Origin: an uncultured virus (IMG/VR IMGVR_UViG_3300030380_002827)
Lineage: Duplodnaviria; Heunggongvirae; Uroviricota; Caudoviricetes
IMG/VR virus record: IMGVR_UViG_3300030380_002827
Reading direction: 5' to 3' (one strand)
Length of the DNA stretch: 63,014 nucleotides
Both the position numbers and the translations under genes were made by a program. Shown here piece by piece: positions 2,463 through 63,014 of the stretch. The notes beneath the pieces were generated by a model. It made no database searches, was not told the origin of the DNA, and saw nothing but the letters and a program-made list of their open reading frames with translations. Positions within the stretch are counted from its first letter, which is position 1, and each line of letters opens with the position of its first letter.

Positions 2463-2482
2463 GAAAAATTTTCTTGTTCGGT

Positions 2483-3271: not shown

Positions 3272-3280
3272 TTCTTCCCC

Positions 3281-4075: not shown

Positions 4076-4088
4076 TTCTGTTTAATTC

Positions 4089-51623: not shown

Positions 51624-51638
51624 TTGTATTTACTTTTA

Positions 51639-51667
51639 ATTATACCATGTATTACTACTTATGTCAT
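51639..51667 (-). promoter_or_regulatory. Sigma70-like promoter
   Basis: ATGACA-N17-TATAAT with an extended TG. Confidence 0.6.
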
Positions 51668-51845
51668 CCCCCTATAACATTCAACCTCTGGGGCATTTTT
51701 TATATCCTCAAAATTTTTTGAATACGAATAATATATAGCTCTCGATTTTGGTTCGTTGTAGGTTAGGGACTTATCGGTTTTTATAACCCGCTATAAAACA
51801 TAATAAAACCCTGGCAAAAGGTGGGGAGAGTGTCCCCCCCCCTCT

Positions 51846-52016
51846 CTAATTCATCTCATACCACATTAAGTTAGTCTTAAGTGCATCTACTAGATCGGAC
51901 TTGTCTACGTTATACTCTAATGAGTTAATGAGATCATACAACCGTGTGTTTAGGTTGTCTCTCTGATCCTCTGTTAAACCTGTGTAAGGTGTTCCGATTA
52001 GGTTACGAGTAGACAT
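51846..52016 (-). CDS. Early hypothetical protein (56 aa)
   Basis: Start moved to MSTRNLIG, downstream of the cassette promoter and (AAAC)n leader. Confidence 0.6.
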   Translation of the reverse strand: MSTRNLIGTPYTGLTEDQRDNLNTRLYDLINSLEYNVDKSDLVDALKTNLMWYEMN

Positions 52017-52046
52017 AAGGCAAAAGTGTTTGTTTGTTATGTACTT

Positions 52047-52105
52047 ATTATAATCACAAAGACCCCACATATGTGAGGCCATGTGACAGTTGTTAAACTG
52101 TCCTA
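52047..52105 (-). promoter_or_regulatory. Early cassette 1
   Basis: tgtgacagt-tgttaa-actgtccta; TATAAT 29 bp away. Confidence 0.75.
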
Positions 52106-52308
52106 TTAACGTGAACATTATAACCGTTATATGATATAATCGCCTCAAGTACTGGAAACTTAAAGAGTTCCTCTACTCTGTGGACCACGTTTAGCACGTC
52201 GAGTGCCTCATATTCGCCTAGGCATAACTCCGTGGCATATTCTTGGTCCTGTGTGTCAAAGTGTGGGAACTGTGTAAAGTCTAGTTTAATGTCTAATACT
52301 GTGAACAT
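52093..52308 (-). CDS. Early hypothetical protein
   Basis: 71-aa ORF with AGGA RBS; its stop lies in the palindrome spacer. Confidence 0.6.
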   Translation of the reverse strand: MFTVLDIKLDFTQFPHFDTQDQEYATELCLGEYEALDVLNVVHRVEELFKFPVLEAIISYNGYNVHVNRTV

Positions 52309-52334
52309 AATTGGTCCTTGTTTGTTATGTTCTT

Positions 52335-52394
52335 ATTGTACATTAAAAAAGGGGTAATGTATGCCCCTTATGTGACAGTTACCAAAGTGGCACT
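52335..52394 (-). promoter_or_regulatory. Early cassette 2 (contains a terminator hairpin)
   Basis: tgtgacagt-taccaa-agtggcact; TACAAT 30 bp away. Confidence 0.75.
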
Positions 52395-52602
52395 AGATTG
52401 CTTTACTTACCTTGCTGCCTGTGTTTATACTAGCAGCGTGTACTGCCATGCCATTGTGCATGAAACTGCCTTTAGGAGCAGCGTTATTCCATGAGCGCCT
52501 TGCCATTGTGGCACCAGCATTGCTTCTCTTTAGGACCGTATATGTGACTACTCTGCCAGATGATGTCTTTAAGCGTGTTTGTTGTTTGATGTTGTTTGCC
52601 AT
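52393..52602 (-). CDS. Early basic hypothetical protein (69 aa)
   Basis: Start moved to MANNIKQQ after the AAAC-rich leader; Lys/Arg-rich with no acidic residues. Confidence 0.6.
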   Translation of the reverse strand: MANNIKQQTRLKTSSGRVVTYTVLKRSNAGATMARRSWNNAAPKGSFMHNGMAVHAASINTGSKVSKAI

Positions 52603-52624
52603 GTGTGTTTGTTTGATTAGGTCC

Positions 52625-52684
52625 ATTATAAAAGAAAAAAGGGAGCAATAGTGCCCCCTATGTGCCAGTTAAGCAACCGCCAAC
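52625..52684 (-). promoter_or_regulatory. Early cassette 3 (degenerate distal arm, contains a terminator hairpin)
   Basis: tgtgccagt-taagca-accgccaac; TATAAT 30 bp away. Confidence 0.65.
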
Positions 52685-53010
52685 TCGAACCCATCAGCGA
52701 AGTCATGAGTAATGCCAGAAGCAGTTACGAACCATTCCCAATTCTTTTGAAATACGCCATTCTGTGTGCCGTCTGTGAATTCATTAATAAGAGCGTTCAA
52801 TCTGCTCTTAGTTGTATTAGATTGCCAACCGCCATCGAAGAGTACCAGTGTATCATTGGTTACAGTCGCAATGTGGTTGCCATGAAGTTTTACGATTGCT
52901 TCCATCTGGTTTGTAGCGGTGTTGAAAGCGTTCTCTACAGTAGTATTAGATGAGCGAAAGTCAGAGCGGTTGCGGATTGCAGCGTTCATGTCTGATTCGA
53001 TTTTTCTCAT
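52669..53010 (-). CDS. Early hypothetical protein (MRKIE family)
   Basis: 113 aa, MRKIE..MN.AI...LHGNHIA...DGGWQSNTTKSRLNAL...FQKN..W; a family I recognise from cyanophages, function unknown. Confidence 0.75.
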   Translation of the reverse strand: MRKIESDMNAAIRNRSDFRSSNTTVENAFNTATNQMEAIVKLHGNHIATVTNDTLVLFDGGWQSNTTKSRLNALINEFTDGTQNGVFQKNWEWFVTASGITHDFADGFELAVA

Positions 53011-53038
53011 GTGTGTTACCTGTGTTTGTTATGTTCTT

Positions 53039-53097
53039 ATTATAGTACCGTGAAAGCACAAAACAACAGGCCATGTGCCAGTTCTTAAAGTGGCACA
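53039..53097 (-). promoter_or_regulatory. Early cassette 4
   Basis: tgtgccagt-tcttaa-agtggcaca; TATAAT 29 bp away. Confidence 0.8.
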
Positions 53098-53115
53098 CTG
53101 ATGCTTACAAAGTGG

Positions 53116-53143
53116 TTGACAATCGCCTCTCATGCCCTATAAT
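53116..53143 (+). promoter_or_regulatory. Plus-strand consensus sigma70 promoter
   Basis: TTGACA-N16-TATAAT with no ORF downstream. Confidence 0.7.
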
Positions 53144-53266
53144 AGGGTTATAAGAGATTCGGGGTAGGATCTATAAACTATTCGACACTCACCCTGCTCC
53201 GCAATAATTGTATCAGAATGTTACGGAATCCCTATGGCACATTTGACGGGCACAGTCAAGTCCTAG

Positions 53267-53326
53267 TGTGCCAGTGCATAAAGTGGCACAGTACTCGTTG
53301 ACTTTCTGAGCATTCTGTGTTATAAT
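53267..53326 (+). promoter_or_regulatory. Cassette 5, inverted (plus-strand promoter)
   Basis: tgtgccagt-gcataa-agtggcaca, then 7 nt, then TTGACT-N17-TATAAT with an extended TG. Confidence 0.75.
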
Positions 53327-53443
53327 GCCCGCCAAGATGTCTATAAAATCTCTACTTAATTGCTTCATTTAACATAAAGAGATAATAAACACTTATATGT
53401 TTATTTTACCTTTTTTAAATGTTAATGAAAAAATCAAAGTGCC

Positions 53444-53638
53444 TTACAATTCATTACTTAATTCATGTACTTTTGTCTTAATTTGTGTTAGTAACTTATA
53501 GATATTTCCCTCTGTATTGTTGTTACTTAGTGAGTCATACTTACTAAGTGATTCTAATACTAATAACTTGATAAGTGCCATTTCATTCTTATCAAATAGT
53601 GGGGCATTTAGCATTGTTTCAATGTTATCAAGGGTCAT
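53444..53638 (-). CDS. Early hypothetical protein
   Basis: ATG start MTLDNIETML; 64 aa. Confidence 0.5.
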   Translation of the reverse strand: MTLDNIETMLNAPLFDKNEMALIKLLVLESLSKYDSLSNNNTEGNIYKLLTQIKTKVHELSNEL

Positions 53639-53771
53639 AGGATTCAATGTCAATTTCTATAGCATAGTCTGGATAGATTTGTTCCTCTATATCATCTAAA
53701 CCTTCAGATAATCTCTTAACGAATGCTTCACTTGTTTCCGTAACTTTCTCCTTATGTGTAACTTTCTCCAT
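53628..53771 (-). CDS. Small acidic hypothetical protein (47 aa)
   Basis: Hand translation MEKVTHKEKVTETSEAFVKRLSEGLDDIEEQIYPDYAIEIDIESYDP; GGAGG RBS and TGATG coupling. Confidence 0.55.
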   Translation of the reverse strand: MEKVTHKEKVTETSEAFVKRLSEGLDDIEEQIYPDYAIEIDIESYDP

Positions 53772-53977
53772 CAGACTGCCTCCTTATTGCTACACTTAGT
53801 AATGGCAATTTGTCCCAGATTTTCTACATATAACGACTTAACTCTCTCTCCGTCACTATCATTTAATTCAAGTAACTTATTCCAGTTCCAGTTACTCGGT
53901 GGATTACAGTTTGCTTCACTAACTGTAAAGTCTAAAGTAACACGATAGCGGGTTACTGATTGTGATTGAGAAGTCAT
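53771..53977 (-). CDS. Early hypothetical protein (68 aa)
   Basis: Start moved to MTSQSQSVTRYRVTLDF, downstream of its own promoter. Confidence 0.65.
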   Translation of the reverse strand: MTSQSQSVTRYRVTLDFTVSEANCNPPSNWNWNKLLELNDSDGERVKSLYVENLGQIAITKCSNKEAV

Positions 53978-54003
53978 AAGATTGAGGCGGTGGATTACAT
54001 TTA

Positions 54004-54032
54004 ATTCTACCAGATATTGCACTAAATGTCAA
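54004..54032 (-). promoter_or_regulatory. Sigma70-like promoter without a palindrome
   Basis: TTGACA-N17-TAGAAT with an extended TG. Confidence 0.7.
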
Positions 54033-54297
54033 CTAAGCACGCATATTTCCTCTACTATGATGTTATTTAGTGGGGAAACATGGCAGTGTTATGTAATCTT
54101 AACGTGACCACGATTGCGGTTCTTATGTGTTACTTATAGAAAAAAATTTCGGGCGTTCGCCTCGAAGTGACTTTCATATATGTAATACTAATAAAGACGA
54201 ATAGCACGATAAAATTGTTAGTTAGTGGTCTTACTAAGTGATTAACAAACAACTCACTTATGCCACTAAGTAACAATTAAAGACGATTAATTACTCA

Positions 54298-54561
54298 TTA
54301 AAATTGTCTGGTGGGAACATACTCTGGGATTACATAATCATAATTAGAGGGTTTAATCTTATCACTATGCTTAGTCTTTACACGCTTTAAAGCACGTTCA
54401 ATACTGGTGTTTATGGCATTGTATTCATTACATTCTTCCGTCCAATAGTTTTCTATAATCTCTTTTTCATATTCTACTGATACTAACTCTTGAATCAGTT
54501 GTAACTGATAGAATGATAATTTAACTGTTGTTTGAATGTCACTTAATGCCTCTGTGTTCAT
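54298..54561 (-). CDS. Early hypothetical protein
   Basis: 87 aa; AGGAGG RBS and TAATG coupling. Confidence 0.65.
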   Translation of the reverse strand: MNTEALSDIQTTVKLSFYQLQLIQELVSVEYEKEIIENYWTEECNEYNAINTSIERALKRVKTKHSDKIKPSNYDYVIPEYVPTRQF

Positions 54562-54695
54562 TAGTGTTTCCTCCTTTTGTTGTTTTTGATTAATTGATTA
54601 AACTTTTTACTTTCTTTGGGTGACATACCGCAAAAATAGTTCAATAGGTTGCCTTCATACTGGTCAGCAAGTTCGATTAACTCTTTTGAGATCAT
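54561..54695 (-). CDS. Small hypothetical protein (44 aa)
   Basis: Hand translation MISKELIELADQYEGNLLNYFCGMSPKESKKFNQLIKNNKRRKH; coupled at both ends. Confidence 0.55.
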   Translation of the reverse strand: MISKELIELADQYEGNLLNYFCGMSPKESKKFNQLIKNNKRRKH

Positions 54696-54856
54696 TGAAT
54701 CATATCCTCAAAACGCTTCATAGCAAGTTTAATTGCTTCTTCATCAATTTGATCTACTGAAACAGTTTTGTTTTTCATTTTGTAAAACTGTTCGATTTCT
54801 TCTAGTGATTCCTCATATAAGGACTCTAGGATTGCTTCATTCTGTAAACAAGACAT
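54692..54856 (-). CDS. Small hypothetical protein (54 aa)
   Basis: Hand translation MSCLQNEAILESLYEESLEEIEQF...AMKRFEDMIQ; ATGA coupling. Confidence 0.6.
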   Translation of the reverse strand: MSCLQNEAILESLYEESLEEIEQFYKMKNKTVSVDQIDEEAIKLAMKRFEDMIQ

Positions 54857-54861
54857 AGTTT

Positions 54862-54987
54862 TTAATCGTAAATTGGAGCGAATAGTTGATAGTAAAGGTC
54901 ATTCATAAGACCGAATTCAAATGAAGTGGTAGCGTGCTCCTCATCAACACCTTCCCAACACTTCATAATTTCTGTGTAAGTATCCAT
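54862..54987 (-). CDS. Small hypothetical protein (41 aa)
   Basis: Hand translation MDTYTEIMKCWEGVDEEHATTSFEFGLMNDLYYQLFAPIYD; TAATG coupling. Confidence 0.55.
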   Translation of the reverse strand: MDTYTEIMKCWEGVDEEHATTSFEFGLMNDLYYQLFAPIYD

Positions 54988-55205
54988 TATAAGCACTCAC
55001 TAGGTGGTAAACCGATTGAAGCGATAGCATTATCAAGTGCGACTCTATCAAGGTCAGGATCATCAAAATCAACACCAGCAGCGTGATCTACGCCCCACTC
55101 TGCTACTTCAAAGCAAAAATCGGTAAAGTCTTTGCATACCCATGCAACATTTTCAAAGTTCTCTACTTCTTTGATTCTGTTGATTAATCGTTCTGTTTTG
55201 GTCAT
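54987..55205 (-). CDS. Early hypothetical protein (72 aa)
   Basis: Start moved to MTKTERLI after the (AAAC)n leader. Confidence 0.65.
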   Translation of the reverse strand: MTKTERLINRIKEVENFENVAWVCKDFTDFCFEVAEWGVDHAAGVDFDDPDLDRVALDNAIASIGLPPSECL

Positions 55206-55232
55206 AGTTGTTTGTTTGTTTGTTATACACTT

Positions 55233-55291
55233 ATTATAGGGCAGTGAGATCAAAAATCTACACTGCTTGTGCCACTTTGATTAGTGGCACA
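55233..55291 (-). promoter_or_regulatory. Early cassette 6
   Basis: Perfect arms tgtgccact-ttgatt-agtggcaca; TATAAT 29 bp away. Confidence 0.85.
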
Positions 55292-55599
55292 CTATCGGTT
55301 GACTCTACGCCCATTCCGAGGTAGTTTGAAAATATCATTTTGTTTATAAACTTCTTCCAAGTGTCTGCTACATTAGACTTAATGTAAAATGTTAAAAACT
55401 CTTCAATTTCAAAATTAGTCTCATTACTGGTAACATCAACTAGAAAATCGTTTTTATAAACAACTTCCGCAAATTTGCGCCCATAAGCATAGAGTCCAGT
55501 AATTCTAGAGTCTATTGCTTCAATTCTTAATCCAGTATTCAATTTCAAATACTTACGTTGATTAAGAGCATCAACTACTTGTTTTTGTTCAGTATTCAT
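55258..55599 (-). CDS. Early hypothetical protein
   Basis: 113 aa; its C-terminus is encoded by the palindrome. Confidence 0.6.
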   Translation of the reverse strand: MNTEQKQVVDALNQRKYLKLNTGLRIEAIDSRITGLYAYGRKFAEVVYKNDFLVDVTSNETNFEIEEFLTFYIKSNVADTWKKFINKMIFSNYLGMGVESTDSVPLIKVAQAV

Positions 55600-55602
55600 G
55601 AT

Positions 55603-55737
55603 TTAGTAATTGTGAATTGTGCGGTAAGGTTTATAGCAGTATTTTGTTTGCTTTTTCTCTTCTAACTCTTCACACTTAGCGATTAAGTCTCTAAGTTTTT
55701 TAACGTCCTTATTGAATTGTTCAGTAGTATAACTCAT
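55603..55737 (-). CDS. Small hypothetical protein (44 aa)
   Basis: Hand translation MSYTTEQFNKDVKKLRDLIAKCEELEEKKQTKYCYKPYRTIHNY; GGAGG RBS. Confidence 0.55.
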   Translation of the reverse strand: MSYTTEQFNKDVKKLRDLIAKCEELEEKKQTKYCYKPYRTIHNY

Positions 55738-55967
55738 TAAACTGCCTCCAAGTCAGATAGGAAGCATTCAACTGTTTGAAATTCATAGTCAGTTATCCAA
55801 GTTTTGATAACAGCATAGTCATTACTTCTATCAAGAATAACCACTTCGCCCTCTAGTTCATCATGTATTTTTGATTGAACTGTAGTTCCAAGTTTGATCT
55901 CTGTAATATCTTGACCAATTCTCAAAACGTCCTTTTTACATAGTTCTTTGTACTCTTGAATCGTCAT
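55737..55967 (-). CDS. Early hypothetical protein (possible SH3-like beta barrel)
   Basis: 76 aa, IKLGTTVQSK....EGEVVIL; follows an (AAAC)n leader. Confidence 0.65.
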   Translation of the reverse strand: MTIQEYKELCKKDVLRIGQDITEIKLGTTVQSKIHDELEGEVVILDRSNDYAVIKTWITDYEFQTVECFLSDLEAV

Positions 55968-55994
55968 AGTTGTTTGTTTGTTTGTTATACTATC

Positions 55995-56053
55995 ATTATA
56001 GGGCAGTGAATACCAATTTCAACCACCACTGTGCCACTTTAACAACTGGCACA
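55995..56053 (-). promoter_or_regulatory. Early cassette 7
   Basis: tgtgccact-ttaaca-actggcaca; TTGAAA and TATAAT, the latter 29 bp away. Confidence 0.85.
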
Positions 56054-56284
56054 CTTCCACTTGATTTTCTTCTCATCATTGAGTATATCAAAGCATATCT
56101 CGCATAAGCAATCTGCTTCGGGCATGGTATCTCGCCAATCATAATCCTCCTCTATAGGATTATCCCAATAGTAATATAAGTCAGGTTGATAATCTATCGA
56201 AAATTTCTCTTTTTCGATTTCATGCTCTTCCATATCCTCTATATGGGAATAATCAAAGTTGCCACATACATCACAATATGACAT
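56039..56284 (-). CDS. Early protein with two CxxC pairs (possible zinc finger)
   Basis: CDVC ... CLCEIC; its stop lies in the palindrome spacer. Confidence 0.65.
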   Translation of the reverse strand: MSYCDVCGNFDYSHIEDMEEHEIEKEKFSIDYQPDLYYYWDNPIEEDYDWRDTMPEADCLCEICFDILNDEKKIKWKCASC

Positions 56285-56481
56285 TACTCTGCCTCCTCTA
56301 GTATCTCGCCTGTATCTTGTACAGTAAACTCAATACCCATATCAGGATACCAACAAGTGCTCTCTAATTGACAATTAGTTAGAACATCATTTTTAAGATA
56401 GTAAAATGTAATACTATCATTCATATCATAATTTGATAGTGTTTCGATTAGTTCTGATACTTTCATTATCTTACGCTCCAT
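56284..56481 (-). CDS. Early hypothetical protein
   Basis: The likely true start is MKVSELIETLSNYD (56466). Confidence 0.6.
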   Translation of the reverse strand: MERKIMKVSELIETLSNYDMNDSITFYYLKNDVLTNCQLESTCWYPDMGIEFTVQDTGEILEEAE

Positions 56482-56726
56482 ACTGTCTCAAATGTCTTAG
56501 AATTCTCAACACTTGCTGAACCATAATCTTGCGCCCACTCTAAACAACTTTTCTTCGCTGTTTTTAAATCATTAGTATAGTGCTCATGATAACCAAGTGG
56601 GTGGTCACTTACTACGATAGTATAAGCAAACTTGTGCCTAGGGTGCTGTGGTTCATTCTTAAGTTGCTCTTGAGCGATTATCTTAAGTTGTTTAAGTTGC
56701 TCTTGTAGAATTTCAATAGTTGTCAT
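56466..56726 (-). CDS. Early hypothetical protein
   Basis: 86 aa following an (AAAC)n leader. Confidence 0.65.
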   Translation of the reverse strand: MTTIEILQEQLKQLKIIAQEQLKNEPQHPRHKFAYTIVVSDHPLGYHEHYTNDLKTAKKSCLEWAQDYGSASVENSKTFETVWSVR

Positions 56727-56748
56727 AATGTTTGTTTGTTATATTACT

Positions 56749-56807
56749 ATTATAGTGGATAAATCTAGAATCCAGTTCTAGATTGTGCCACTTCTTCGAT
56801 TGTCCTA
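56749..56807 (-). promoter_or_regulatory. Early cassette 8
   Basis: tgtgccact-tcttcg-attgtccta; TATAAT 29 bp away. Confidence 0.7.
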
Positions 56808-57037
56808 CTAGACATAAACTGAGCAGGTCTTTTAGTATTAACAGTAACAGCATAGTTATTTTCTAGTAAAATGTCGATCTCCTCCGCCATGTCATACACG
56901 TTGATTGCGGTTTTCTCTGCTGTTTTACCTTTAAATGTGACTACCTTAAGTCTAGCGTTCTTACTAACATTATTGCGCCAGTCCTTTACTTCAAAGTAAT
57001 CAACAACTGTATTGAGTGATTCAGATTGAAATTGCAT
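56765..57037 (-). CDS. Early hypothetical protein
   Basis: 90 aa; reads through the palindrome. Confidence 0.65.
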   Translation of the reverse strand: MQFQSESLNTVVDYFEVKDWRNNVSKNARLKVVTFKGKTAEKTAINVYDMAEEIDILLENNYAVTVNTKRPAQFMSSRTIEEVAQSRTGF

Positions 57038-57064
57038 AATTGTTTGTTTGTTTGTTATACTATC

Positions 57065-57123
57065 ATTATAGTAGCATGAAATACAATAACAACATATAGT
57101 GTGCCACTAATCAAACTGGCACA
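57065..57123 (-). promoter_or_regulatory. Early cassette 9
   Basis: tgtgccact-aatcaa-actggcaca; TATAAT 29 bp away. Confidence 0.85.
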
Positions 57124-57139
57124 CTATTGGTTGACTCTC

Positions 57140-57382
57140 CTACCATTCTGGTGTAGGTTGCTTTGCCTTGTTCTTTTCTATTTTCTCTTGCTCTTTGAAT
57201 GTGAGAGCATCTACTCTATCTTTAATTGATTTAATCTCTTTAACTTCATGATATTCGCTAGTGCGGTAGTAATCTACCATACTACCGTAATAGTCATCAA
57301 GAGCGCAATTAATGATACTTAGTTCAGTTAAACTAACATCTAATTTAATACTATTCATGAATCCAGTTTCCCTCGCCATCAT
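57140..57382 (-). CDS. Early hypothetical protein
   Basis: ORF track, 80 aa; start uncertain. Confidence 0.55.
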   Translation of the reverse strand: MMARETGFMNSIKLDVSLTELSIINCALDDYYGSMVDYYRTSEYHEVKEIKSIKDRVDALTFKEQEKIEKNKAKQPTPEW

Positions 57383-57623
57383 AATCTCCTTCAGTAATTG
57401 ATTCTAGTCCGTAAGGGTCAGGGTCATTAACAACTGATTGTAAACCTTTATACTCACGCCCTTGTAAACGATAAACTTCTTTTTGTTGTCTCAAGTCTCT
57501 ATCAATTCTATATGATAGTTCACAATTAAGTGCCATGTATTGACGTTTATCATCACTATGCTCTGCATAATGGAATTGTAAACACTCTAACAAGTACTCA
57601 AGTTCTCTAATTGCAAATTTCAT
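57351..57623 (-). CDS. Early hypothetical protein
   Basis: 90 aa with GAGG RBS. Confidence 0.6.
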   Translation of the reverse strand: MKFAIRELEYLLECLQFHYAEHSDDKRQYMALNCELSYRIDRDLRQQKEVYRLQGREYKGLQSVVNDPDPYGLESITEGDYDGEGNWIHE

Positions 57624-57796
57624 GATAATGCCTCCTCTAATAGATCACTCATGCAAGTAAGGTCAACAACATCACTAATACCTAGTGAAGTGTCATTATC
57701 AATAGCGAAGTCTAAAGCACTCTTTAGATCAGATACTCTACCACTATCAAAAGTAAGAGTGATTGAGTTAGTATTTGGATTTCTGTAGTAAATCAT
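57620..57796 (-). CDS. Small hypothetical protein (58 aa)
   Basis: Hand translation MIYYRNPNTNSITLTFDSGRVSDLKSALDFAIDND...LLEEALS, directly after an (AAAC)n leader. Confidence 0.6.
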   Translation of the reverse strand: MIYYRNPNTNSITLTFDSGRVSDLKSALDFAIDNDTSLGISDVVDLTCMSDLLEEALS

Positions 57797-57819
57797 GTTT
57801 GTTTGTTTGTTATAATACT

Positions 57820-57878
57820 ATTATAGAGCAGTCATACACGATAACAACCACCATTGTGACAGTAATCAAACTGTCACA
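57820..57878 (-). promoter_or_regulatory. Early cassette 10
   Basis: Perfect arms tgtgacagt-aatcaa-actgtcaca; TATAAT 29 bp away. Confidence 0.85.
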
Positions 57879-58039
57879 TCATAGGTTGATTTGTTCTTTA
57901 GAATATGCCAATACTCATCATAAGTAAGAGTTTCTTCTTGCTCTGTATCCATATTGAGTACAATATCAAAAGGGTAAAAAGCATAATACTTAACGTGGTC
58001 ATCTACATACTCTTTGATTTGTTGATACTTAGTCATCAT
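57866..58039 (-). CDS. Early hypothetical protein
   Basis: ATG start MMTKYQQIKEY; its stop lies in the palindrome spacer. Confidence 0.6.
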   Translation of the reverse strand: MMTKYQQIKEYVDDHVKYYAFYPFDIVLNMDTEQEETLTYDEYWHILKNKSTYDVTV

Positions 58040-58190
58040 TAGTGCCCTCAATAAAAACGCCTCTATTGGTTAATATGTCCTCTATTTTGAATAAAATAGG
58101 TGCAATTTTTGTACTATCCATTTCTTCATAATCACTTATATAATCATCAAGTGACTTATGAATAGTTTTTAATTCATCATTACTGAACAT
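58029..58190 (-). CDS. Small hypothetical protein (53 aa)
   Basis: Hand translation MFSNDELKTIHKSLDDYISDYEEMDSTKIAPILFKIEDILTNRGVFIEGTNDD. Confidence 0.55.
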   Translation of the reverse strand: MFSNDELKTIHKSLDDYISDYEEMDSTKIAPILFKIEDILTNRGVFIEGTNDD

Positions 58191-58434
58191 TCTCTATAAC
58201 CTCCGCTATAGTATCTGTAAAGTATTCATCAAAATACTCTTCAATTTCTACCATAGCATCATTAAATGTTTGGTCATCTATCCATCTTTGCATATCGTCA
58301 GTAACGTAGATTATCAAGTCCTTCATTGACATATTATCAACAATTCGCTCAACATAGTATTCCTTAAGAGCAGCAAACTGTTTGTCAGTCATGTTTTGTG
58401 CCTTGAGTAAGGTATCTTTGTTTGTTTTGTTCAT
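58180..58434 (-). CDS. Early hypothetical protein
   Basis: 84 aa, LKEYYVERIVDNMSMKDL; GGAGG RBS. Confidence 0.65.
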   Translation of the reverse strand: MNKTNKDTLLKAQNMTDKQFAALKEYYVERIVDNMSMKDLIIYVTDDMQRWIDDQTFNDAMVEIEEYFDEYFTDTIAEVIENVQ

Positions 58435-58628
58435 TAGTTGCCTCCGATAAGTTGATATGGTTCTGGAAATTCGTCCACTTTAAGTTGAGCGAATGAGTGA
58501 ATCATAGTCCACACTTTTTGTCCAGATAGTTGTTTTTCATCACAAATGTGACTAGCGGTATCCTCTAATACTTCCAATACTTCAAAAGCATCAAGTTTCA
58601 ACTGTTCTAATTCTTCAAATGTCATCAC
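58434..58628 (-). CDS. Early hypothetical protein
   Basis: 64 aa, coupled to its neighbours. Confidence 0.6.
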   Translation of the reverse strand: MMTFEELEQLKLDAFEVLEVLEDTASHICDEKQLSGQKVWTMIHSFAQLKVDEFPEPYQLIGGN

Positions 58629-58858
58629 TTAGTCCTCGCAAATAGTTTTGAAATTCTATCGTCTATCTCATTACAACGCTCATAAACTGATCTACCCTCG
58701 ATCAATTCATCTTCTTGTAAAGAGTCATCATCATAGCAACGATAGTCCTCTAGTGAGTTAGCGATTGTATCCCACTCTCCATCAGTAAAAAATGAGCGGA
58801 TTGTTTGTAGTTGGTCGAAACTGTAGTCTCTGACCAAAGAACCTTGACGATTCATCAT
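58625..58858 (-). CDS. Early hypothetical protein
   Basis: 77 aa; GAGG RBS after the cassette promoter. Confidence 0.65.
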   Translation of the reverse strand: MMNRQGSLVRDYSFDQLQTIRSFFTDGEWDTIANSLEDYRCYDDDSLQEDELIEGRSVYERCNEIDDRISKLFARTK

Positions 58859-58888
58859 AGTTAAAACCTCTGTGTTTGTTATATTACT

Positions 58889-58947
58889 ATTATAGGGCAG
58901 TGACTCAAAGAATCAACTGCCCTTGTGCCAGTTTGTTTACTGGTCTA
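58889..58947 (-). promoter_or_regulatory. Early cassette 11
   Basis: tgtgccagt-ttgttt-actggtcta; TATAAT 29 bp away. Confidence 0.75.
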
Positions 58948-59239
58948 GTACCCAAAGACTTCCACCATCAAAGTCTTTAGAGTATCCATAATTTCTTACG
59001 AGCATATCTCTGACTCTCTCTCTATCAAGTGAGTCGCCATCGCCCCAAGTGAATATGTCACTATCTAAATCAGATATTAGTTGTAGATAGTCCTCTGTAG
59101 CAAGTGTAATGTCATCTTTAGTGACATTCATTTGATATAGTGCATCATCAGCACCGTAGAATGAAAAAACGTAATCAGTAAACTCATCAATTTGATTGAT
59201 GTCATACTTGTTTTTTCCGATAGCAACGATAGAAGTCAT
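58937..59239 (-). CDS. Early hypothetical protein
   Basis: 100 aa, F.DYVFSFYG...LY...GDSLDRERVRD. Confidence 0.7.
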   Translation of the reverse strand: MTSIVAIGKNKYDINQIDEFTDYVFSFYGADDALYQMNVTKDDITLATEDYLQLISDLDSDIFTWGDGDSLDRERVRDMLVRNYGYSKDFDGGSLWVLDQ

Positions 59240-59264
59240 AAACCTGTTTGTTTGTTATACTATC

Positions 59265-59323
59265 ATTATAGGGCAGTGATATTGAATATCAACCGCCCTT
59301 GTGCCACTTATTCAACTGTCACT
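59265..59323 (-). promoter_or_regulatory. Early cassette 12
   Basis: tgtgccact-tattca-actgtcact; TATAAT 29 bp away. Confidence 0.8.
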
Positions 59324-59503
59324 AGGTACTAGCATTTGTGGGATTCCATCATCAATATCCGCTAAACGTCCTAGTTTATGACGAATTTTCCTAAAATTGA
59401 CATTAAAATCGTCATTCAATTTGTCAGTAACCCTACAAGGCGTACCTAAGATAAGTTGTAGCAGAGCGTCACACTCTGCAGCAGTCAAGTTTGGGTCAGT
59501 CAT
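59312..59503 (-). CDS. Early hypothetical protein
   Basis: 63 aa; its stop lies in the palindrome spacer. Confidence 0.6.
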   Translation of the reverse strand: MTDPNLTAAECDALLQLILGTPCRVTDKLNDDFNVNFRKIRHKLGRLADIDDGIPQMLVPSDS

Positions 59504-59676
59504 TAGTCTTTAGGATACAAGTTTGTAATAATGTCAGCAAGTTGATTCAACTGATCTTCATTCATTAGTTCGATCATAGCATCAACTATATCATAGGGAG
59601 CGGAATTGTCCGCCTCCTCTAAGATTTCTGCTATCTCTGAAAATAGAGTAGTCTTTAAGTCATTTGGATATATCAT
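59503..59676 (-). CDS. Small acidic hypothetical protein (57 aa)
   Basis: Hand translation MIYPNDLKTTLFSEIAEILEEADNSAPYDIVDAMIELMNEDQLNQLADIITNLYPKD; coupled at both ends. Confidence 0.6.
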   Translation of the reverse strand: MIYPNDLKTTLFSEIAEILEEADNSAPYDIVDAMIELMNEDQLNQLADIITNLYPKD

Positions 59677-60152
59677 GCTGACATTAACTCCTGTGGATAG
59701 TCAGCAGGGATTTCTTCCTTGATAGGTGTGAAAGTATCGTTGAAATCCTTAGTTTTCTCATTCCAAAAACTAATACCATAGCATACCAAAGTTCCGTCTA
59801 GTTCTTTGATGTAAGCATACTCTCCACAACACTTGTTAGTGTCCTCAAAGAAGTGTGAAGTAGTTTTGTGATGTTTAGGAGCATTGTCATCAATAGACTC
59901 TCCTCTATCTGTGTAGTAACAAGGTTTGAACTCTCTGCCCTCTAGTTCCTCTGGTTCAGTAAGTTCCCAACCTGATTGAGTATGGCAACAACTCATGTCT
60001 CCACCATCAATAAGTTCAGCGATTGCTTCCCTAGTAGGAAAATGTTTGTTGAGAGTAACTCCCAACCACTGTGGATAACCGTCCCAATGATGATATGCGG
60101 ATAGGATTGAACCATCAGCAAGTCTAAGTCCGATTCTTGAATTTGTTGACAT
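59673..60152 (-). CDS. Conserved phage protein with an HWDGYP motif
   Basis: MST.SRIG......I.S.Y.HWDGYP..LG..L...LI.GGD.S ... EYAY; a widespread phage family of unknown function. Confidence 0.75.
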   Translation of the reverse strand: MSTNSRIGLRLADGSILSAYHHWDGYPQWLGVTLNKHFPTREAIAELIDGGDMSCCHTQSGWELTEPEELEGREFKPCYYTDRGESIDDNAPKHHKTTSHFFEDTNKCCGEYAYIKELDGTLVCYGISFWNEKTKDFNDTFTPIKEEIPADYPQELMSA

Positions 60153-60180
60153 GATTTGTTGTTTGTTTTGTTATGTACTT

Positions 60181-60239
60181 ATTATAGTATGGTAGGAATG
60201 GAAATCTACCACCTGTGTGCCACTAATCCAAGTGTCACA
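60181..60239 (-). promoter_or_regulatory. Early cassette 13
   Basis: tgtgccact-aatcca-agtgtcaca; TATAAT 29 bp away. Confidence 0.8.
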
Positions 60240-60492
60240 AGTTTGCTGGGTCGGAAGGCATTACCTGTGGTAAGATCATCAGTTGTAACCTATCAACAAC
60301 AGCGGGAACAAGTTTGCTACCATCAAAGGAGCAACTTCCGTCATCATTCTTGTTACCTAACTTCTCACAAATTGCATCACTAACTAACTCATATAGAGCG
60401 TTATGTGCCTTTGGATTGTTGTTAATATGTTCGATAACTTCCAATACCAAAGCATCAGCAAGTTTGTTTAATGTGTCCTTAGATAGTGTCAT
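60235..60492 (-). CDS. Early hypothetical protein
   Basis: 85 aa, LSKDTLNKLADAL..EVIEHI; GAGGA RBS. Confidence 0.65.
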   Translation of the reverse strand: MTLSKDTLNKLADALVLEVIEHINNNPKAHNALYELVSDAICEKLGNKNDDGSCSFDGSKLVPAVVDRLQLMILPQVMPSDPANL

Positions 60493-60635
60493 TTAATCCT
60501 CTTATCTTGATTTAAAGGGGAATTGAAATAGTCACGATTAACAACATAAAGTGTTACCATGGCGGTAAGAATACCAAAGAATCCGATAATCAAAATAGGA
60601 CTCTTAGGGAAGTCGTAGAAAGGAATTTCAGTCAT
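60489..60635 (-). CDS. Small single-pass membrane protein (48 aa)
   Basis: Hand translation MTEIPFYDFPKSPILIIGFFGILTAMVTLYVVNRDYFNSPLNQDKRIK; coupled at both ends. Confidence 0.6.
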   Translation of the reverse strand: MTEIPFYDFPKSPILIIGFFGILTAMVTLYVVNRDYFNSPLNQDKRIK

Positions 60636-60808
60636 TAGTTGTCGTATAGTGGGTAGTAAACTTCTGTGTCAACTGCGTGCTTCATAGTCTCATACATTGA
60701 AAACTCTGGGTCAGATAAGTCTTTGCAAGTTGATAAAATACTGATAACCTCTTCCATAAGGTTGACTATCATTTTTTCTTTTGGTGTGGTTTTTAGTTTT
60801 GATGCCAT
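60635..60808 (-). CDS. Early hypothetical protein (57 aa)
   Basis: Start moved to MASKLKTTPKE after the (AAAC)n leader. Confidence 0.6.
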   Translation of the reverse strand: MASKLKTTPKEKMIVNLMEEVISILSTCKDLSDPEFSMYETMKHAVDTEVYYPLYDN

Positions 60809-60826
60809 AATGTTTGTTTGTATAGT

Positions 60827-60889
60827 ATTATAATACAGGCAGTAGTATTTAAGTGCAACCACCTGTGTGCCAGTTTACAAATAGGTTAT
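60827..60889 (-). promoter_or_regulatory. Early cassette 14 (distal arm degenerate)
   Basis: tgtgccagt-ttacaa-ataggttat; TATTAT at 30 bp and TATAAT at 33 bp. Confidence 0.65.
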
Positions 60890-61228
60890 CTCTCCCTTTT
60901 CAACTGCCTCCTCTAGTTCATAATAGTTTGCTCTCTCTGCATCTATCTCTTCTTGATGATATTCAAATACCATATTCTGATAGATGTCGAACAAGTCCTG
61001 TAATACTACGCCTTCGAGGTCACTCCATGAACCAACATAGTCTAACTGTGTCTCATCATATCCACCCTTCTCAAAACTAGGAGCGGATACAAAATTCATT
61101 CCAATGTCAATAAAGAAATGTCTGCCATACTTCTCACTCACATGAGTTTTTGTTGGTATGAAATGGCAACCATGTTTGCCCTCTGGATCTCTCAAATCGT
61201 TGAAATCTCTATAAATGTATGTTCGCAT
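60875..61228 (-). CDS. Early hypothetical protein
   Basis: 117 aa; GGAGG RBS; its stop lies in the palindrome spacer. Confidence 0.65.
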   Translation of the reverse strand: MRTYIYRDFNDLRDPEGKHGCHFIPTKTHVSEKYGRHFFIDIGMNFVSAPSFEKGGYDETQLDYVGSWSDLEGVVLQDLFDIYQNMVFEYHQEEIDAERANYYELEEAVEKGEITYL

Positions 61229-61395
61229 TACAATTCCTCCACGTTTTCAATATTCCACTCTGACACATATTCATCTTCTACTTCAAATGAATTGATGTCA
61301 GCATGAGCAAGTTCTCTTGCCTGTTCCTCTGTGTCTGCTTCAACTAAGATAGTGAAGTAATTGACTTCAGAGCATTCTATTCTAAACTGATTCAT
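61228..61395 (-). CDS. Small acidic hypothetical protein (55 aa)
   Basis: Hand translation MNQFRIECSEVNYFTILVEADTEEQARELAHADINSFEVEDEYVSEWNIENVEEL; contains the VEA..EE.A motif common in small phage proteins. Confidence 0.65.
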   Translation of the reverse strand: MNQFRIECSEVNYFTILVEADTEEQARELAHADINSFEVEDEYVSEWNIENVEEL

Positions 61396-61577
61396 TATAT
61401 ACCTCCATCAACTGCTATCATTTTACGATAGATGTCATGAGAGATATAATCTCTTATATCATTTGAGAGATCAGGGTCATACTTTGTTTCTACTCTCTCT
61501 TTGAGTGAGAAGTAAGTCGGTTCAAATATCTCAAAGAGTCTATTGAACTCGGTGTCTGTTAGGATTAATGTTTTCAT
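61395..61577 (-). CDS. Early hypothetical protein
   Basis: 60 aa, coupled to its neighbours. Confidence 0.6.
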   Translation of the reverse strand: MKTLILTDTEFNRLFEIFEPTYFSLKERVETKYDPDLSNDIRDYISHDIYRKMIAVDGGI

Positions 61578-61777
61578 TGTTCAAGTTTTAGACGTAAGAG
61601 TGAATCAACAACCGATTCCATAGTTGCTTTAGAAAAACCAACTGCATAGGGATAATCTTTTGTGTAATCATCACTATTCTGTTCTGAAGCACCATAACAT
61701 ACTTCGATTGATTCATTGAGTGACTTAATGATTTGGTCAACAATGTAGGTTGGAATTTCAAGTCTTGAATACGGCAT
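61574..61777 (-). CDS. Early hypothetical protein
   Basis: 67 aa, YPYAVGFSKATM; GGAG RBS after the structured leader. Confidence 0.65.
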   Translation of the reverse strand: MPYSRLEIPTYIVDQIIKSLNESIEVCYGASEQNSDDYTKDYPYAVGFSKATMESVVDSLLRLKLEQ

Positions 61778-61796
61778 TGATCTCCATGTATTTGAG

Positions 61797-61879
61797 AGGG
61801 GGCAACTCAGATTGGCAGTTTGAGATTAAATCCTTCGAGTCAAAAGAACCGCTTCTTTTAACGGATCGCCTTGCCCCCT
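61797..61879 (-). ncRNA. Candidate structured 5' leader RNA (multi-stem junction)
   Basis: AGGGGGCAA/UUGCCCCCU closing stem around a GUUAAAAGAA-GCGG-UUCUUUUGAC hairpin; begins at the predicted transcription start. Confidence 0.55.
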
Positions 61880-61887
61880 ATGTTTCT

Positions 61888-61946
61888 ATTATAGTATGAT
61901 GAAATAGTATTTCATGCACCTATGTGCCACTTATTCAACTGGCACA
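61888..61946 (-). promoter_or_regulatory. Early cassette 15
   Basis: tgtgccact-tattca-actggcaca; TATAAT 29 bp away. Confidence 0.8.
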
Positions 61947-62878: not shown

Positions 62879-62884
62879 ACTACC

Positions 62885-62943
62885 ATTATACACCATGGCA
62901 ACAGGAAATCAACCACCTGTGTGCCAGTTTATAAAGTGGGTGA
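62885..62943 (-). promoter_or_regulatory. Early cassette 16
   Basis: tgtgccagt-ttataa-agtgggtga; TTGATT and TATAAT, the latter 29 bp away. Confidence 0.75.
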
Positions 62944-63014
62944 GAGAGAAACGTGGGACTACTGTAATGGGTTTCACCCAAGAGTCCAAATTTACACTAT
63001 GGGAATCGCTTACA

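What the first reader, a model, noticed from the sequence alone, without database searches (positions are those of the whole stretch)
52082..61946. Upstream genes stop inside the palindrome, mostly in its central spacer
Seen: stop codons at 52093, 52669, 56039, 57866, 58937, 59312, 60875 and 61931 lie 8-13 nt into the 24-bp element, at or next to the 6-bp spacer. Stops at 52393 and 60235 fall in the distal arm. Genes ending at 55258 and 56765 read through it and share a VAQ C-terminal peptide. So 12 of the 15 minus-oriented elements encode the C-terminus of an unrelated gene. Known: integron cassette genes often stop within the attC inverse core site. Inference: genes arrive by crossover at this element and take their stop from it. 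The alternative is strong genome compaction plus an AT-rich spacer that readily supplies stops.
Basis: partly seen in the sequence, partly recalled or inferred. Interest (0 to 1): 0.8.

Follow-up and report, generated by a model that had tools for sequence, protein, structure and literature searches.

The report
Gene ends overlap cyanophage promoter palindrome
In this T4-like virus of marine cyanobacteria, small early genes run into a conserved 24-base protein-site-like palindrome that sits a fixed distance in front of the next gene's promoter, mostly because the genome is tightly packed and only the palindrome's centre is free to hold a stop codon, not because an integron-like system inserts the genes.

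Summary
All 12 stop coordinates are as stated. I count 16 elements, 14 with an upstream minus-strand ORF: 8 stop in the centre, 2 in the distal arm, 3 read through, 1 stops 18 nt before.

The window is an S-SSM7-like T4-type cyanomyovirus. The element is the upstream part of a repeated early-promoter unit: TGTGCCAsT-N6-AsTGGCACA, exactly 29 nt, TATAAT, an AACAAACA leader, then ATG. The 29-nt spacing holds in 12 of 15 minus-oriented units. It works like the published PeSL cassettes of T4-type phages.

The arms are conserved as words, not as a hairpin. They are the half-site of the host Yfr2 promoter motif CGRE1 in a different arrangement.

The integron-like reading is only partly supported:
- One cassette indel against S-SSM7 has its junction inside the palindrome.
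- In 3 of 5 informative gene families the tail or stop is element-coded; in 2 the native C-terminus and stop are kept.
- Breakpoints are not enriched at the units.
- Two near-complete relatives encode no tyrosine or serine recombinase.

Compaction and overprinting is the best explanation.

The parts
52082..52105 (-). Palindrome element with a degenerate distal arm. The stop of ORF 52093..52308 lies in its centre. A GC hairpin (52061-52080) lies between the element and TATAAT.
52371..52394 (-). Palindrome element. The TAG of ORF 52393..52626 lies at the distal edge. A GC hairpin (52351-52367) and a T-run (52345-52350) follow, then TACAAT.
52661..52684 (-). Half element (proximal arm only). The native TAA of the Kyano_Gp96 gene 52669..53010 directly abuts the arm. 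A terminator-like hairpin lies at 52640-52659.
53074..53097 (.). Perfect palindrome. It serves a minus-strand promoter (29 nt to TATAAT, gene 52669..53010) and also faces a 12/12 plus-strand promoter at 53116-53143 (40 nt to TATAAT).
53267..53290 (+). Perfect palindrome, followed on the plus strand by an 11/12 promoter at 53298-53326 (30 nt to TATAAT). No minus-strand gene ends in it.
55268..55291 (-). Palindrome read through by ORF 55258..55599 (...VPLIKVAQAV*). 29 nt to TATAAT.
56030..56053 (-). Palindrome. The distal arm and spacer encode CASC* of ORF 56039..56284. 29 nt to TATAAT, with an 11/12 promoter.
56784..56807 (-). Element with a degenerate distal arm, read through by ORF 56765..57037 (...EEVAQSRTGF*). 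29 nt to TATAAT.
57100..57123 (-). Perfect palindrome. The upstream ORF 57140..57382 stops 18 nt before it. 29 nt to TATAAT.
57855..57878 (-). Perfect palindrome (TGTGACA variant). The TGA of ORF 57866..58051 lies in the centre. 29 nt to TATAAT.
58924..58947 (-). Element whose 'distal arm' is native coding sequence (LDQ) of ORF 58937..59239. Its stop lies at the start of the centre. 29 nt to TATAAT.
59300..59323 (-). Element. The TGA of ORF 59312..59503 lies in the centre. In S-SSM7 the ortholog stops in another frame, in the arm. 29 nt to TATAAT, with an 11/12 promoter.
60216..60239 (-). Element. The native TGA of ORF 60235..60492 forms part of the distal arm TGTGACA. 29 nt to TATAAT.
60866..60889 (-). 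Half element (proximal arm only). The TAA of ORF 60875..61228 directly abuts the arm. TATAAT lies 33 nt on.
61923..61946 (-). Palindrome. The distal arm and spacer encode VPVE* of the DUF6267 gene 61931..62896. 29 nt to TATAAT, then a structured leader of about 100 nt (61778-61882).
62920..62943 (-). Element with a degenerate distal arm, read through by an ORF cut by the window end (stop at 62909 in the TTGA of the -35). 29 nt to TATAAT.
55965..56053 (-). Example of the whole unit. On the minus strand it runs: palindrome, 29 nt holding GGTTGA (-35), TATAAT, a GATAGTATAACAAACAAACAAACAACT leader without a Shine-Dalgarno sequence, then ATG of ORF 55737..55967.
   Evidence: (family D1, 11 copies of 78 nt)

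Best explanation
The 24-mer is the upstream, protein-site-like part of a repeated early-promoter unit in the hyperplastic small-gene region of an S-SSM7-like T4-type cyanomyovirus. On the coding (minus) strand each unit reads:
- TGTG[C/A]CA[C/G]T-N6-A[C/G]TG[G/T]CACA,
- 29 nt that hold a TTGA-type -35,
- TATAAT,
- an A/C-rich AACAAACA leader,
- ATG.

The site must sit at a fixed distance from the promoter and the genes are packed without spacers. The end of the upstream gene therefore lies under the site. The arms are fixed words that hold no stop codon, apart from the TGA of the TGTGACA variant. The first place where a stop can lie is the unconstrained AT-rich centre, and that is where most genes stop.

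Where the native C-terminus could not encode the distal arm, one of three things is seen. The arm is degenerate, the native stop is built into the arm, or a few terminal residues have been replaced by arm-coded ones.

The repeated units also serve now and then as patches of homology for cassette gain and loss, as described for PeSLs. This is not what places the stops.

Shown: the anatomy, the spacing, the distribution, the C-terminus comparisons and the indel junctions. Inferred: promoter activity, early timing, and that a protein rather than a hairpin reads the site. The most likely reader is a host PlmA/PMM1637-type GntR regulator or a phage protein with the same specificity, because the arms are the CGRE1 half-site.
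For: Identity: nearest records are Synechococcus phages S-SSM7 and S-SSM6a, at 84% nt identity over 47% of 55000-62900. The 321-aa protein is 89% identical.

Unit and spacing:
- Repeat family D1 has 11 copies of 78 nt.
- 12 of 15 minus-oriented units have a perfect TATAAT exactly 29 nt after the palindrome.
- The best promoter-like hits of the region fall on the units, although the total count does not exceed shuffles (53 against 46.1).
- In other viral contigs the same spacing of 28-30 nt holds in 94 of 115 oriented elements.
- The two elements that face the gene-free stretch are followed on the plus strand by 12/12 and 11/12 promoters at 40 and 30 nt. The site therefore works in either orientation and about one helical turn further out.

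Not a hairpin:
- Among 201 distinct elements, positions 8 and 17 are complementary in only 53 (GG 95, CC 53, GC 37, CG 16).
- Positions 5 and 20 vary independently (Fisher p 0.73). One search repeats the position-8/17 count on oriented and dereplicated subsets.
- 5 of the 16 window elements fold no better than -6 kcal/mol and none is followed by a U-run.
- The proximal arm is intact in 16 of 16 while the distal arm is degenerate in 6.
- Three units carry a separate GC hairpin between palindrome and -10, two of them followed by a T-run.

Confinement: all 11 full sites of S-SSM7 lie at 41.8-51.8 kb of 233 kb, and all 8 of a 230-kb relative lie within 8 kb.

Overprinting:
- Native C-terminus and stop are kept under the element in 2 of 5 informative families.
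- In one family the 'arm' is native codons.
- Some relatives have the stop followed by the proximal arm alone (L195; the window at 52669 and 60875).
- In more distant relatives of the DUF6267 gene the palindrome lies 3-5 nt, or about 80 nt, after an unchanged native stop.

CGRE1 link:
- The Prochlorococcus MED4 yfr2 promoter oligos in Table S1 of PMC6191309 hold AACTGGCACA directly followed by TGTGACAATT, inside the 29 nt that the authors scrambled in their mutant.
- A marine Synechococcus genome has two sites sTGGCAC-N-GTGCCAs directly upstream of yfr2-like genes.
Against: - No transcription start or protein binding was measured. Promoter and operator roles are inferred from sequence.
- The phage element has the CGRE1 half-sites in swapped (everted) order with a 4-6 nt centre. 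The host site has them inverted with 0-1 nt between. The host arrangement is absent from both phage genomes searched, so the same dimer may not fit.
- The used frame does stop in the centre more often than other frames (8/13 against 5/26). Stops are somewhat commoner in the coding than in the reverse orientation (mean 1.03 against 0.74 closed frames, Wilcoxon p 0.005). Some selection or history beyond pure chance therefore acts on the centre.
- One indel junction does lie inside the palindrome.
- 7 of the 16 window elements can form a stable hairpin of -10 kcal/mol or better, so an added RNA-level role is not excluded.
Confidence: 0.6

Rival explanations
1. PeSL-type shuffling places the stops. 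Cassettes move by homologous recombination between the repeated units. The crossover usually falls in or after the palindrome, so incoming genes inherit the element and its stop.
For: - The window 52092-52369 cassette is absent from S-SSM7, and the junction lies between the distal and proximal arm.
- A 352-bp two-gene insertion in a relative with 87-97% nucleotide identity is bounded by direct repeats of the AACAAACAC-ACTATG leader.
- A 302-bp segment between -10 and ATG (61578-61879) is present or absent among relatives 96-98% identical.
- In 3 of 5 gene families the tail or stop is element-coded.
- PeSL-mediated indels and mini-circles are documented for RB49/phi1 (PMC2839356, passages) and proposed for T4/PST and KVP40/nt-1 (PMC4122927, parts 1-2 of the text).
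Against: - Only 12 of the 35 indel ends at gene junctions lie in units, equal to the units' share of junctions (14 of 42). Only 4 ends touch a palindrome.
- 23 ends lie at plain gene borders without any element.
- 2 of 5 families keep the native stop.
- HSP ends are approximate at 72-88% identity.
Confidence: 0.2
2. Integron-like site-specific recombination. The palindrome is an attC-like site cut by a dedicated recombinase, and genes are inserted at a defined point in it.
For: - The palindrome marks many gene ends.
- One indel has its junction inside it.
- A 39-nt hairpin insertion in the distal arm of three relatives is flanked by a duplicated GGTGTGCCAG (loci L009, L010, L015).
Against: - No PF00589 or PF00239 match in S-SSM7 (complete genome) or in the 99%-complete relative G002. 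The controls rang in 14 of 14 and 12 of 14 genomes.
- Only 3 of 43 ORFs of the region have any Pfam family, and none is a recombinase.
- The junction position varies from before the arm to the proximal arm.
- Each cassette has its own promoter.
- There is no pairing covariation such as a folded attC strand would need.
Confidence: 0.04
3. RNA-level element. The palindrome is transcribed at the 3' end of the upstream mRNA and acts as a terminator, a stabilising hairpin or a processing site. The stop codon sits in the loop so that ribosomes unfold it.
For: - 7 of 16 elements fold at -10 kcal/mol or better, against shuffle means of -2.5 to -4.4 for those seven.
- PeSL stem-loops of RB49 are effective terminators (PMC2839356 abstract).
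- The element lies at the end of transcription units.
Against: - Complementary bases at positions 8/17 are depleted, not enriched (53 of 201), and there is no covariation at 5/20.
- No U-run follows any element, and 5 of 16 fold no better than -6 kcal/mol.
- The arms are conserved as sequence across viral contigs of very different base composition.
- The spacing is fixed to the -10 box, not to the stop.
- Three units have a separate GC hairpin after the palindrome, two of them followed by a T-run.
Confidence: 0.1

Closest known systems
PeSLs (promoter-early stem-loops) of T4-type phages RB49/phi1, T4/PST and KVP40/nt-1 (Arbiol et al. 2010, PMC2839356; Comeau et al. 2014, PMC4122927)
   Same: - Small repeated intergenic modules in the hyperplastic regions of a T4-type genome.
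- Each has a symmetric element just upstream of a sigma-70-type early promoter, followed by a short leader and the ATG of a small ORFan.
- Indels between close relatives sometimes have junctions inside the modules, including between -10 and ATG, as in the sequenced mini-circles.
   Different: - Here the symmetric element is a conserved word pair with degenerate, non-covarying positions and no U-run. The published stem-loops are described as terminators, and their sequence differs between phage groups.
- A separate GC hairpin is present in only 3 units, with a T-run in 2 of them.
- The leader has no Shine-Dalgarno sequence.
- The upstream gene overlaps the element.
- Breakpoints are not enriched at the modules.
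- For the cyanophage S-PM2, a paper states that PeSL density is low (PMC4503421, passage).
CGRE1, the operator of the GntR-family regulator PMM1637 in yfr2 promoters of Prochlorococcus and marine Synechococcus (PMC6191309)
   Same: - The half-site word is the same, including the C/G ambiguity: host AAsTGGCAC(A) / (T)GTG[C/A]CAsTT. This is seen in the MED4 yfr2 and yfr4 promoter oligos of Table S1 and at two yfr2-like genes of a Synechococcus genome.
- Both lie upstream of a host-type promoter.
- In both host sites found, as in most phage sites, one consensus half is paired with one C/G-variant half.
   Different: - Host: halves inverted with 0-1 nt between them (21-22 nt in all).
- Phage: the same halves in swapped order with a 4-6 nt centre (24 nt).
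- The host arrangement has 0 matches in S-SSM7 and G002. In the one Synechococcus genome looked at (G008), the capped genome scan listed a single phage-type site, L580.
- Binding of PMM1637 to the phage site is untested.
Integron attC sites and gene cassettes
   Same: Imperfect palindromes at the 3' ends of unrelated small genes. Gene ends overlap the site.
   Different: - No integrase.
- Every gene block has its own promoter.
- No fixed crossover point.
- No structure-preserving covariation.
- Gene flux is equally frequent at borders without the element.

Membership tests
Integron (attC / IntI cassette system) | Tyrosine recombinase IntI encoded with the array | tested here: not met
   PF00589 has no match in the complete S-SSM7 genome or in the 99%-complete relative G002. 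The control rang in 14 of 14 genomes. The window's own genome is not held.
Integron (attC / IntI cassette system) | Promoterless cassettes read from one common promoter | tested here: not met
   15 minus-oriented units each carry their own -10 box, 12 of them a perfect TATAAT 29 nt after the palindrome.
Integron (attC / IntI cassette system) | Recombination at one defined position of a folded, structure-conserved site | tested here: not met
   The gene-element junction varies between families and lineages. Complementarity at positions 8/17 is depleted.
PeSL cassettes of T4-type phages | Sigma-70-like early promoter inside a repeated intergenic module of a T4-type phage | tested here: met
   T4-like cyanomyovirus. 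-35/-10 matches of 10-12 of 12 fall on the units. Spacing is fixed. Activity and timing were not measured.
PeSL cassettes of T4-type phages | Stem-loop just upstream of the promoter that terminates transcription | tested here: inconclusive
   A symmetric element is there, but it shows no covariation and no U-run. Only 3 units have a separate GC hairpin, 2 of them followed by a T-run. Termination is not testable here.
PeSL cassettes of T4-type phages | Clustered in hyperplastic regions rich in small ORFans | tested here: met
   All full sites of S-SSM7 (11) and G002 (8) lie in one 8-10 kb region. 40 of 43 ORFs have no Pfam family.
PeSL cassettes of T4-type phages | Indels between close relatives with junctions in the modules | tested here: met
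   Junctions in modules are shown. Only 12 of 46 breakpoint ends lie in modules, in proportion to their share of junctions.
PeSL cassettes of T4-type phages | Mini-circle formation between neighbouring modules | not testable with these tools
   Needs inverse PCR on infected cells.
CGRE1 / PMM1637 (PlmA-type GntR) operator | Half-site word AAsTGGCAC | tested here: met
   Table S1 oligos of PMC6191309. Two Synechococcus sites at yfr2-like genes. Phage arms.
CGRE1 / PMM1637 (PlmA-type GntR) operator | 21-22 nt inverted repeat with the halves abutting | tested here: not met
   The phage halves are in swapped order with a 4-6 nt centre. The host arrangement has 0 matches in S-SSM7 and G002.
CGRE1 / PMM1637 (PlmA-type GntR) operator | Bound by the regulator | not testable with these tools
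   Needs EMSA or pull-down.
Intrinsic terminator | GC-rich hairpin followed by a U-run | tested here: not met
   No U-run follows any of the 16 palindromes. The scan calls terminators only at the separate hairpins 52640-52659 and 52061-52080 and at two unrelated places.

The most novel reading that the evidence does not exclude
The palindrome is a virus-specific rearrangement of the host CGRE1 half-sites. It lets the host PlmA/PMM1637-type GntR regulator, or a phage protein that copies its specificity, switch dozens of cyanomyovirus early promoters together from a fixed position centred about 53 nt upstream of the start. This would tie early viral gene expression to the host's nitrogen and light stress signalling in phages that lack MotA and AsiA. 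The need to keep this site in register with the promoter would be strong enough to be written over the ends of unrelated protein genes.
Probability: 0.3. Interest if true: 0.7.

Novelty: new variant of a known kind. Interest (0 to 1): 0.4.

Why it matters
The stop-in-palindrome pattern itself is an ordinary result of tight packing around a constrained site. It is still a useful marker. It shows that the 24-mer is under stronger sequence constraint than the last codons of the genes it overlaps.

The element behind it is widespread. It keeps a fixed register with a host-type promoter and shares its half-site with a known host regulator's operator.

How T4-like cyanophages, which lack the T4 middle-mode factors (stated in PMC5780444, passage), time their early genes is open. 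This site gives a concrete and cheap thing to test. It also extends the PeSL idea to cyanomyoviruses, with the caveat that gene flux here is no more frequent at the modules than at other gene borders.

Tried and rejected
- Rfam: no family matched at E up to 1 in 51500-63014 or in eight related loci.
- tRNA scan of the window: none found.
- 'Three-frame stop' design of the element: rejected. Only 2 of 113 oriented elements close all three frames.
- Own genome: not held. The nearest held record, G001, does not cover this region.
- Metatranscriptomes: four RNA-library runs of two studies hold parts of 55000-62900 as contigs. Contigs bridge palindromes; for example, one X1 piece spans 59411-61419. 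Contigs cannot show starts, ends or strand, and DNA carry-over is possible, so I draw nothing from them.
It could not be used to count host sites.
- A strict variable-gap CGRE1 pattern found nothing in 5 cyanobacterial genomes. The 22-nt form found nothing in 2. Only the 21-nt form with mismatches found the two yfr2-like sites.
- Literature: searches found no paper that describes this palindrome in cyanophages. Sullivan et al. 2010 (PMC3037559) has no occurrence of 'palindrom' and predicted early promoters with BPROM. Doron et al. 2016 (Syn9 transcriptome) is not held. It and other subscription papers may describe the motif, so 'not in print' is not established.
- Figures and Supplementary Fig. 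S1 of PMC6191309 (the CGRE1 logos and alignment) could not be seen. I worked from the oligo table only.
- Gene families 56765..57037 and 60875..61228: every homolog found also carries the element (7 and 5 distinct), so they say nothing about native C-termini.

Full report
WHAT THE WINDOW IS

The region 55000-62900 matches Synechococcus phages S-SSM7 and S-SSM6a at 84% nucleotide identity over 47% of its length. Hundreds of other T4-like cyanophages match more weakly. The 321-aa protein of 61931..62896 is 89% identical to its S-SSM7 homolog and belongs to DUF6267.

The genes from about 50 to 63 kb all lie on the minus strand. They are small, and 40 of 43 have no Pfam family. This is the kind of hyperplastic small-gene region described for T4-type phages (PMC4122927, text parts 1-2).

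THE OBSERVATION

A pattern search finds the palindrome far above chance: 17 matches against 3.25 expected, and 0 of 100 shuffles reach 17. With two half copies I count 16 elements between 52082 and 62943.

Of 14 elements with an upstream minus-strand ORF:
- 8 hold the stop in the centre,
- 2 hold it in the distal arm,
- 3 are read through (55258, 56765 and a window-cut ORF ending at 62909),
- 1 ORF (57140) stops 18 nt earlier.

'VAQ' is encoded by the proximal arm in both full read-through ORFs, but it is followed by 2 and 5 more residues.

The gene's own frame stops in the centre in 8 of 13 cases, against 5 of 26 for the other frames. A centre stop exists in 17 of 48 element-frame combinations in the coding orientation and in 11 of 48 in the reverse orientation. 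That gives P = 0.006 to 0.05 for 8 of 13. The pattern is therefore real and modestly above a random-frame expectation.

WHAT THE ELEMENT IS

Read on the minus strand, each copy is the first part of a longer repeat (family D1, 11 copies of 78 nt). The order is:
- palindrome,
- 29 nt that usually hold GGTTGA,
- TATAAT,
- a leader rich in AACAAACA without a Shine-Dalgarno sequence,
- ATG.

Twelve of 15 minus-oriented units have a perfect TATAAT exactly 29 nt after the palindrome. The consensus scan puts its best -35/-10 matches on these units, although the total number of promoter-like hits in the region is not above shuffles (53 against 46.1).

Two palindromes (53074, 53267) border a gene-free stretch. 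On the plus strand they are followed by the two best promoter matches of the region (12/12 and 11/12), at 40 and 30 nt. The site therefore works in either orientation, as a two-fold symmetric site should, and about one helical turn further out.

Three units (52082, 52371, 52661) have a separate GC hairpin between palindrome and -10, and two of these (52371, 52661) are followed by a T-run. In those units the terminator-like part and the palindrome are different things.

HAIRPIN OR PROTEIN SITE

After removing duplicates, 201 elements remain, and most are followed by TTG...TATAAT at 28-30 nt (94 of 115 oriented ones).
- Positions 8 and 17, which would pair in a hairpin, are complementary in only 53 of 201 (GG 95, CC 53, GC 37, CG 16).
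- Positions 5 and 20 vary independently (Fisher p 0.73). One search repeats the position-8/17 count on oriented and dereplicated subsets.
- In the window, 7 of 16 elements fold at -10 kcal/mol or better, 5 fold no better than -6, and none has a U-run.
- The promoter-proximal arm is intact in all 16 copies, while the distal arm, which lies in coding sequence, is degenerate in 6.

Conservation of words rather than of pairing, together with a fixed distance to the -10 box, points to a protein-binding site coupled to the promoter.

WHO MIGHT BIND IT

A note from an earlier report of this scan (e1-6425625) proposed that the palindrome matches the control site of the cyanobacterial sRNA Yfr2. I tested this.
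- PMC6191309 describes CGRE1 as a 21-22 nt palindromic motif upstream of yfr2 promoters, bound by the GntR-family regulator PMM1637 (passages).
- Its oligo table gives the MED4 yfr2 promoter. There AACTGGCACA is directly followed by TGTGACAATT, inside the 29 nt that the authors scrambled in the mutant. The yfr4 promoter holds AACTGTCATA followed by TGTGACAATT.
- In a marine Synechococcus genome two sites of the form sTGGCAC-N-GTGCCAs lie directly upstream of yfr2-like genes.

The half-site word is therefore the same as the phage arm, including the C/G ambiguity. The arrangement is not. The host halves abut with the CAC/GTG ends inward. The phage halves are swapped, with the AAs/sTT ends inward and a 4-6 nt centre. 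The host arrangement is absent from S-SSM7 and from the 230-kb relative.

I therefore treat binding by the host regulator as a lead with odds of about 0.3, not as a finding. I could not see the paper's figures or Supplementary Fig. S1.

DO GENES TAKE THEIR STOP FROM THE ELEMENT?

I compared C-termini with homologs from viral contigs for seven genes that end at an element.
- DUF6267 protein: element-free homologs end ...KKxW[N/D]K*. The window has ...KKTWGVPVE*, with VPVE and the stop encoded by arm and spacer. In more distant lineages the palindrome lies 3-5 nt, or about 80 nt, after an unchanged native stop.
- 81-aa protein: native ends are KW plus 1-4 residues. The window has KWKCASC*. Other lineages carry the element two bases out of register (KWVCQ*) or read through it.
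- 100-aa protein: element-free homologs share ...LWVLDQ and go on with EAE* or EAK*. The window's 'distal arm' is simply the native LDQ codons, and the stop replaces the last three codons.
- 85-aa protein: element-free homologs have the same ...PSDPA[D/N]L and the same TGA, which in the window forms part of TGTGACA.
- Kyano_Gp96 protein: the native ...ELAVA* is kept and the stop directly abuts the proximal arm. Relatives have the full palindrome starting at the stop.
- Two further families had no element-free homologs among those found.

So 3 of 5 informative families have an element-derived tail or stop and 2 keep the native end. The junction lies at a different place each time.

CASSETTE FLUX

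I compared the window with S-SSM7, a 230-kb relative (G002) and a relative with 87-97% nucleotide identity (G003). There are 23 gaps with 46 ends:
- 12 ends lie in promoter units (4 at a palindrome, 8 in the promoter or leader),
- 23 lie at plain gene borders,
- 11 lie inside genes or diverged sequence.

Units occupy 14 of 42 gene junctions (33%), and 12 of the 35 ends at junctions (34%) fall in them. There is no enrichment.

Clean examples do exist:
- The 278-bp cassette 52092-52369 is absent from S-SSM7, whose unit is a chimera with the switch between the two arms.
- A 352-bp two-gene insertion in G003 is bounded by repeats of the leader.
- A 302-bp segment between -10 and ATG (61578-61879) is present or absent among relatives 96-98% identical.

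These match what was sequenced in RB49 mini-circles, where crossovers lay between -10 and ATG (PMC2839356, passages).

No tyrosine or serine recombinase is encoded in S-SSM7 or G002.

VERDICT

The stop codons lie in the palindrome because three things coincide. A sequence-constrained, promoter-coupled site must keep its register. The genes are packed without spacers. The centre is the only part of the site free to carry a stop.

Recombination between the repeated units happens and sometimes hands a gene a new tail. It is no more frequent there than at other gene borders, and nothing resembles an integron. The unit works like a PeSL but differs in that its symmetric part behaves as a protein site built from the host CGRE1 half-site.

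I found no description of it in the papers I could search. The main cyanophage transcriptome paper is not held. Earlier reports of this scan have already noted the same kind of unit in other cyanophage windows.

Noticed in passing
window 53098-53440 (+ strand): This is a gene-free stretch with two near-perfect plus-strand promoters (53116-53143, 53298-53326), each behind a palindrome. The first would start a transcript beginning AAGAGATTCGGGGTAGGATC. The same start follows the same promoter layout in two other viral contigs (L236, L357). There is no Rfam match, no tRNA and the fold is no better than shuffles (z -0.08). It may be a small RNA or peptide gene.
   Followed up: partly
window 61778-61882 (- strand): A structured leader of about 100 nt (GGGGGCAAGG ... 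TTGCCCCC) lies between the -10 box and the ATG of ORF 61574..61777. MFE is -30.9 kcal/mol with z -2.18. Together with that ORF it is present or absent among relatives 96-98% identical. A similar start (GGGGCAAGGCGATCCG) follows a palindrome unit in another contig (L246). No Rfam match.
   Followed up: partly
loci L009, L010, L015 (relatives of window 61923-61946): In three relatives the distal arm is interrupted by a 39-nt insert. The insert is itself a hairpin (GATGAAGTGATT...AATCACTTCATC) and is flanked by a duplicated GGTGTGCCAG. It lengthens the DUF6267 protein to ...GVPDEVITNS*. It looks like a small insertion with a target duplication.
   Followed up: no
window 55291-55325 and 57123-57155 (+ strand): Several palindromes have a mirror copy of the -35 region on their distal side (TCAACC ... 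palindrome ... GGTTGA). On the plus strand these read TTGACT-17-TAGTTT/TAGGTT, that is, weak antisense promoter-like sites inside the upstream gene (repeat families D3 and D8; sequences).
   Followed up: no
window 62876-62896: The DUF6267 gene probably starts at the ATG 6 nt after the TATAAT box (MKNKHLEH), which would make a leaderless mRNA. The S-SSM7 unit at L001 11850 has the same layout.
   Followed up: no
Genome-contig loci L558-L678: The 24-mer pattern also occurs in many Acidobacteriota genomes (Terracidiphilus, Pyrinomonadaceae, Bryobacterales and others), mostly as TGTGACAsTTTCGAAAsTGTCACA-like sites in GC-rich DNA. This is probably an unrelated operator family. One Synechococcus genome holds a phage-like unit (L580).
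   Followed up: no
window 2474-4743 and 29585-34494: Long diverged direct repeats (families D2, D4, D5, D7, D9-D11) lie inside the large minus-strand genes of the structural part of the window. They are probably repeated domains of fibre or surface proteins.
   Followed up: no
window 53400-54300: A markedly AT-rich stretch with small ORFs and a hairpin-plus-A/T-run at about 54140-54170. It aligns to S-SSM7 at only 78%.
   Followed up: no
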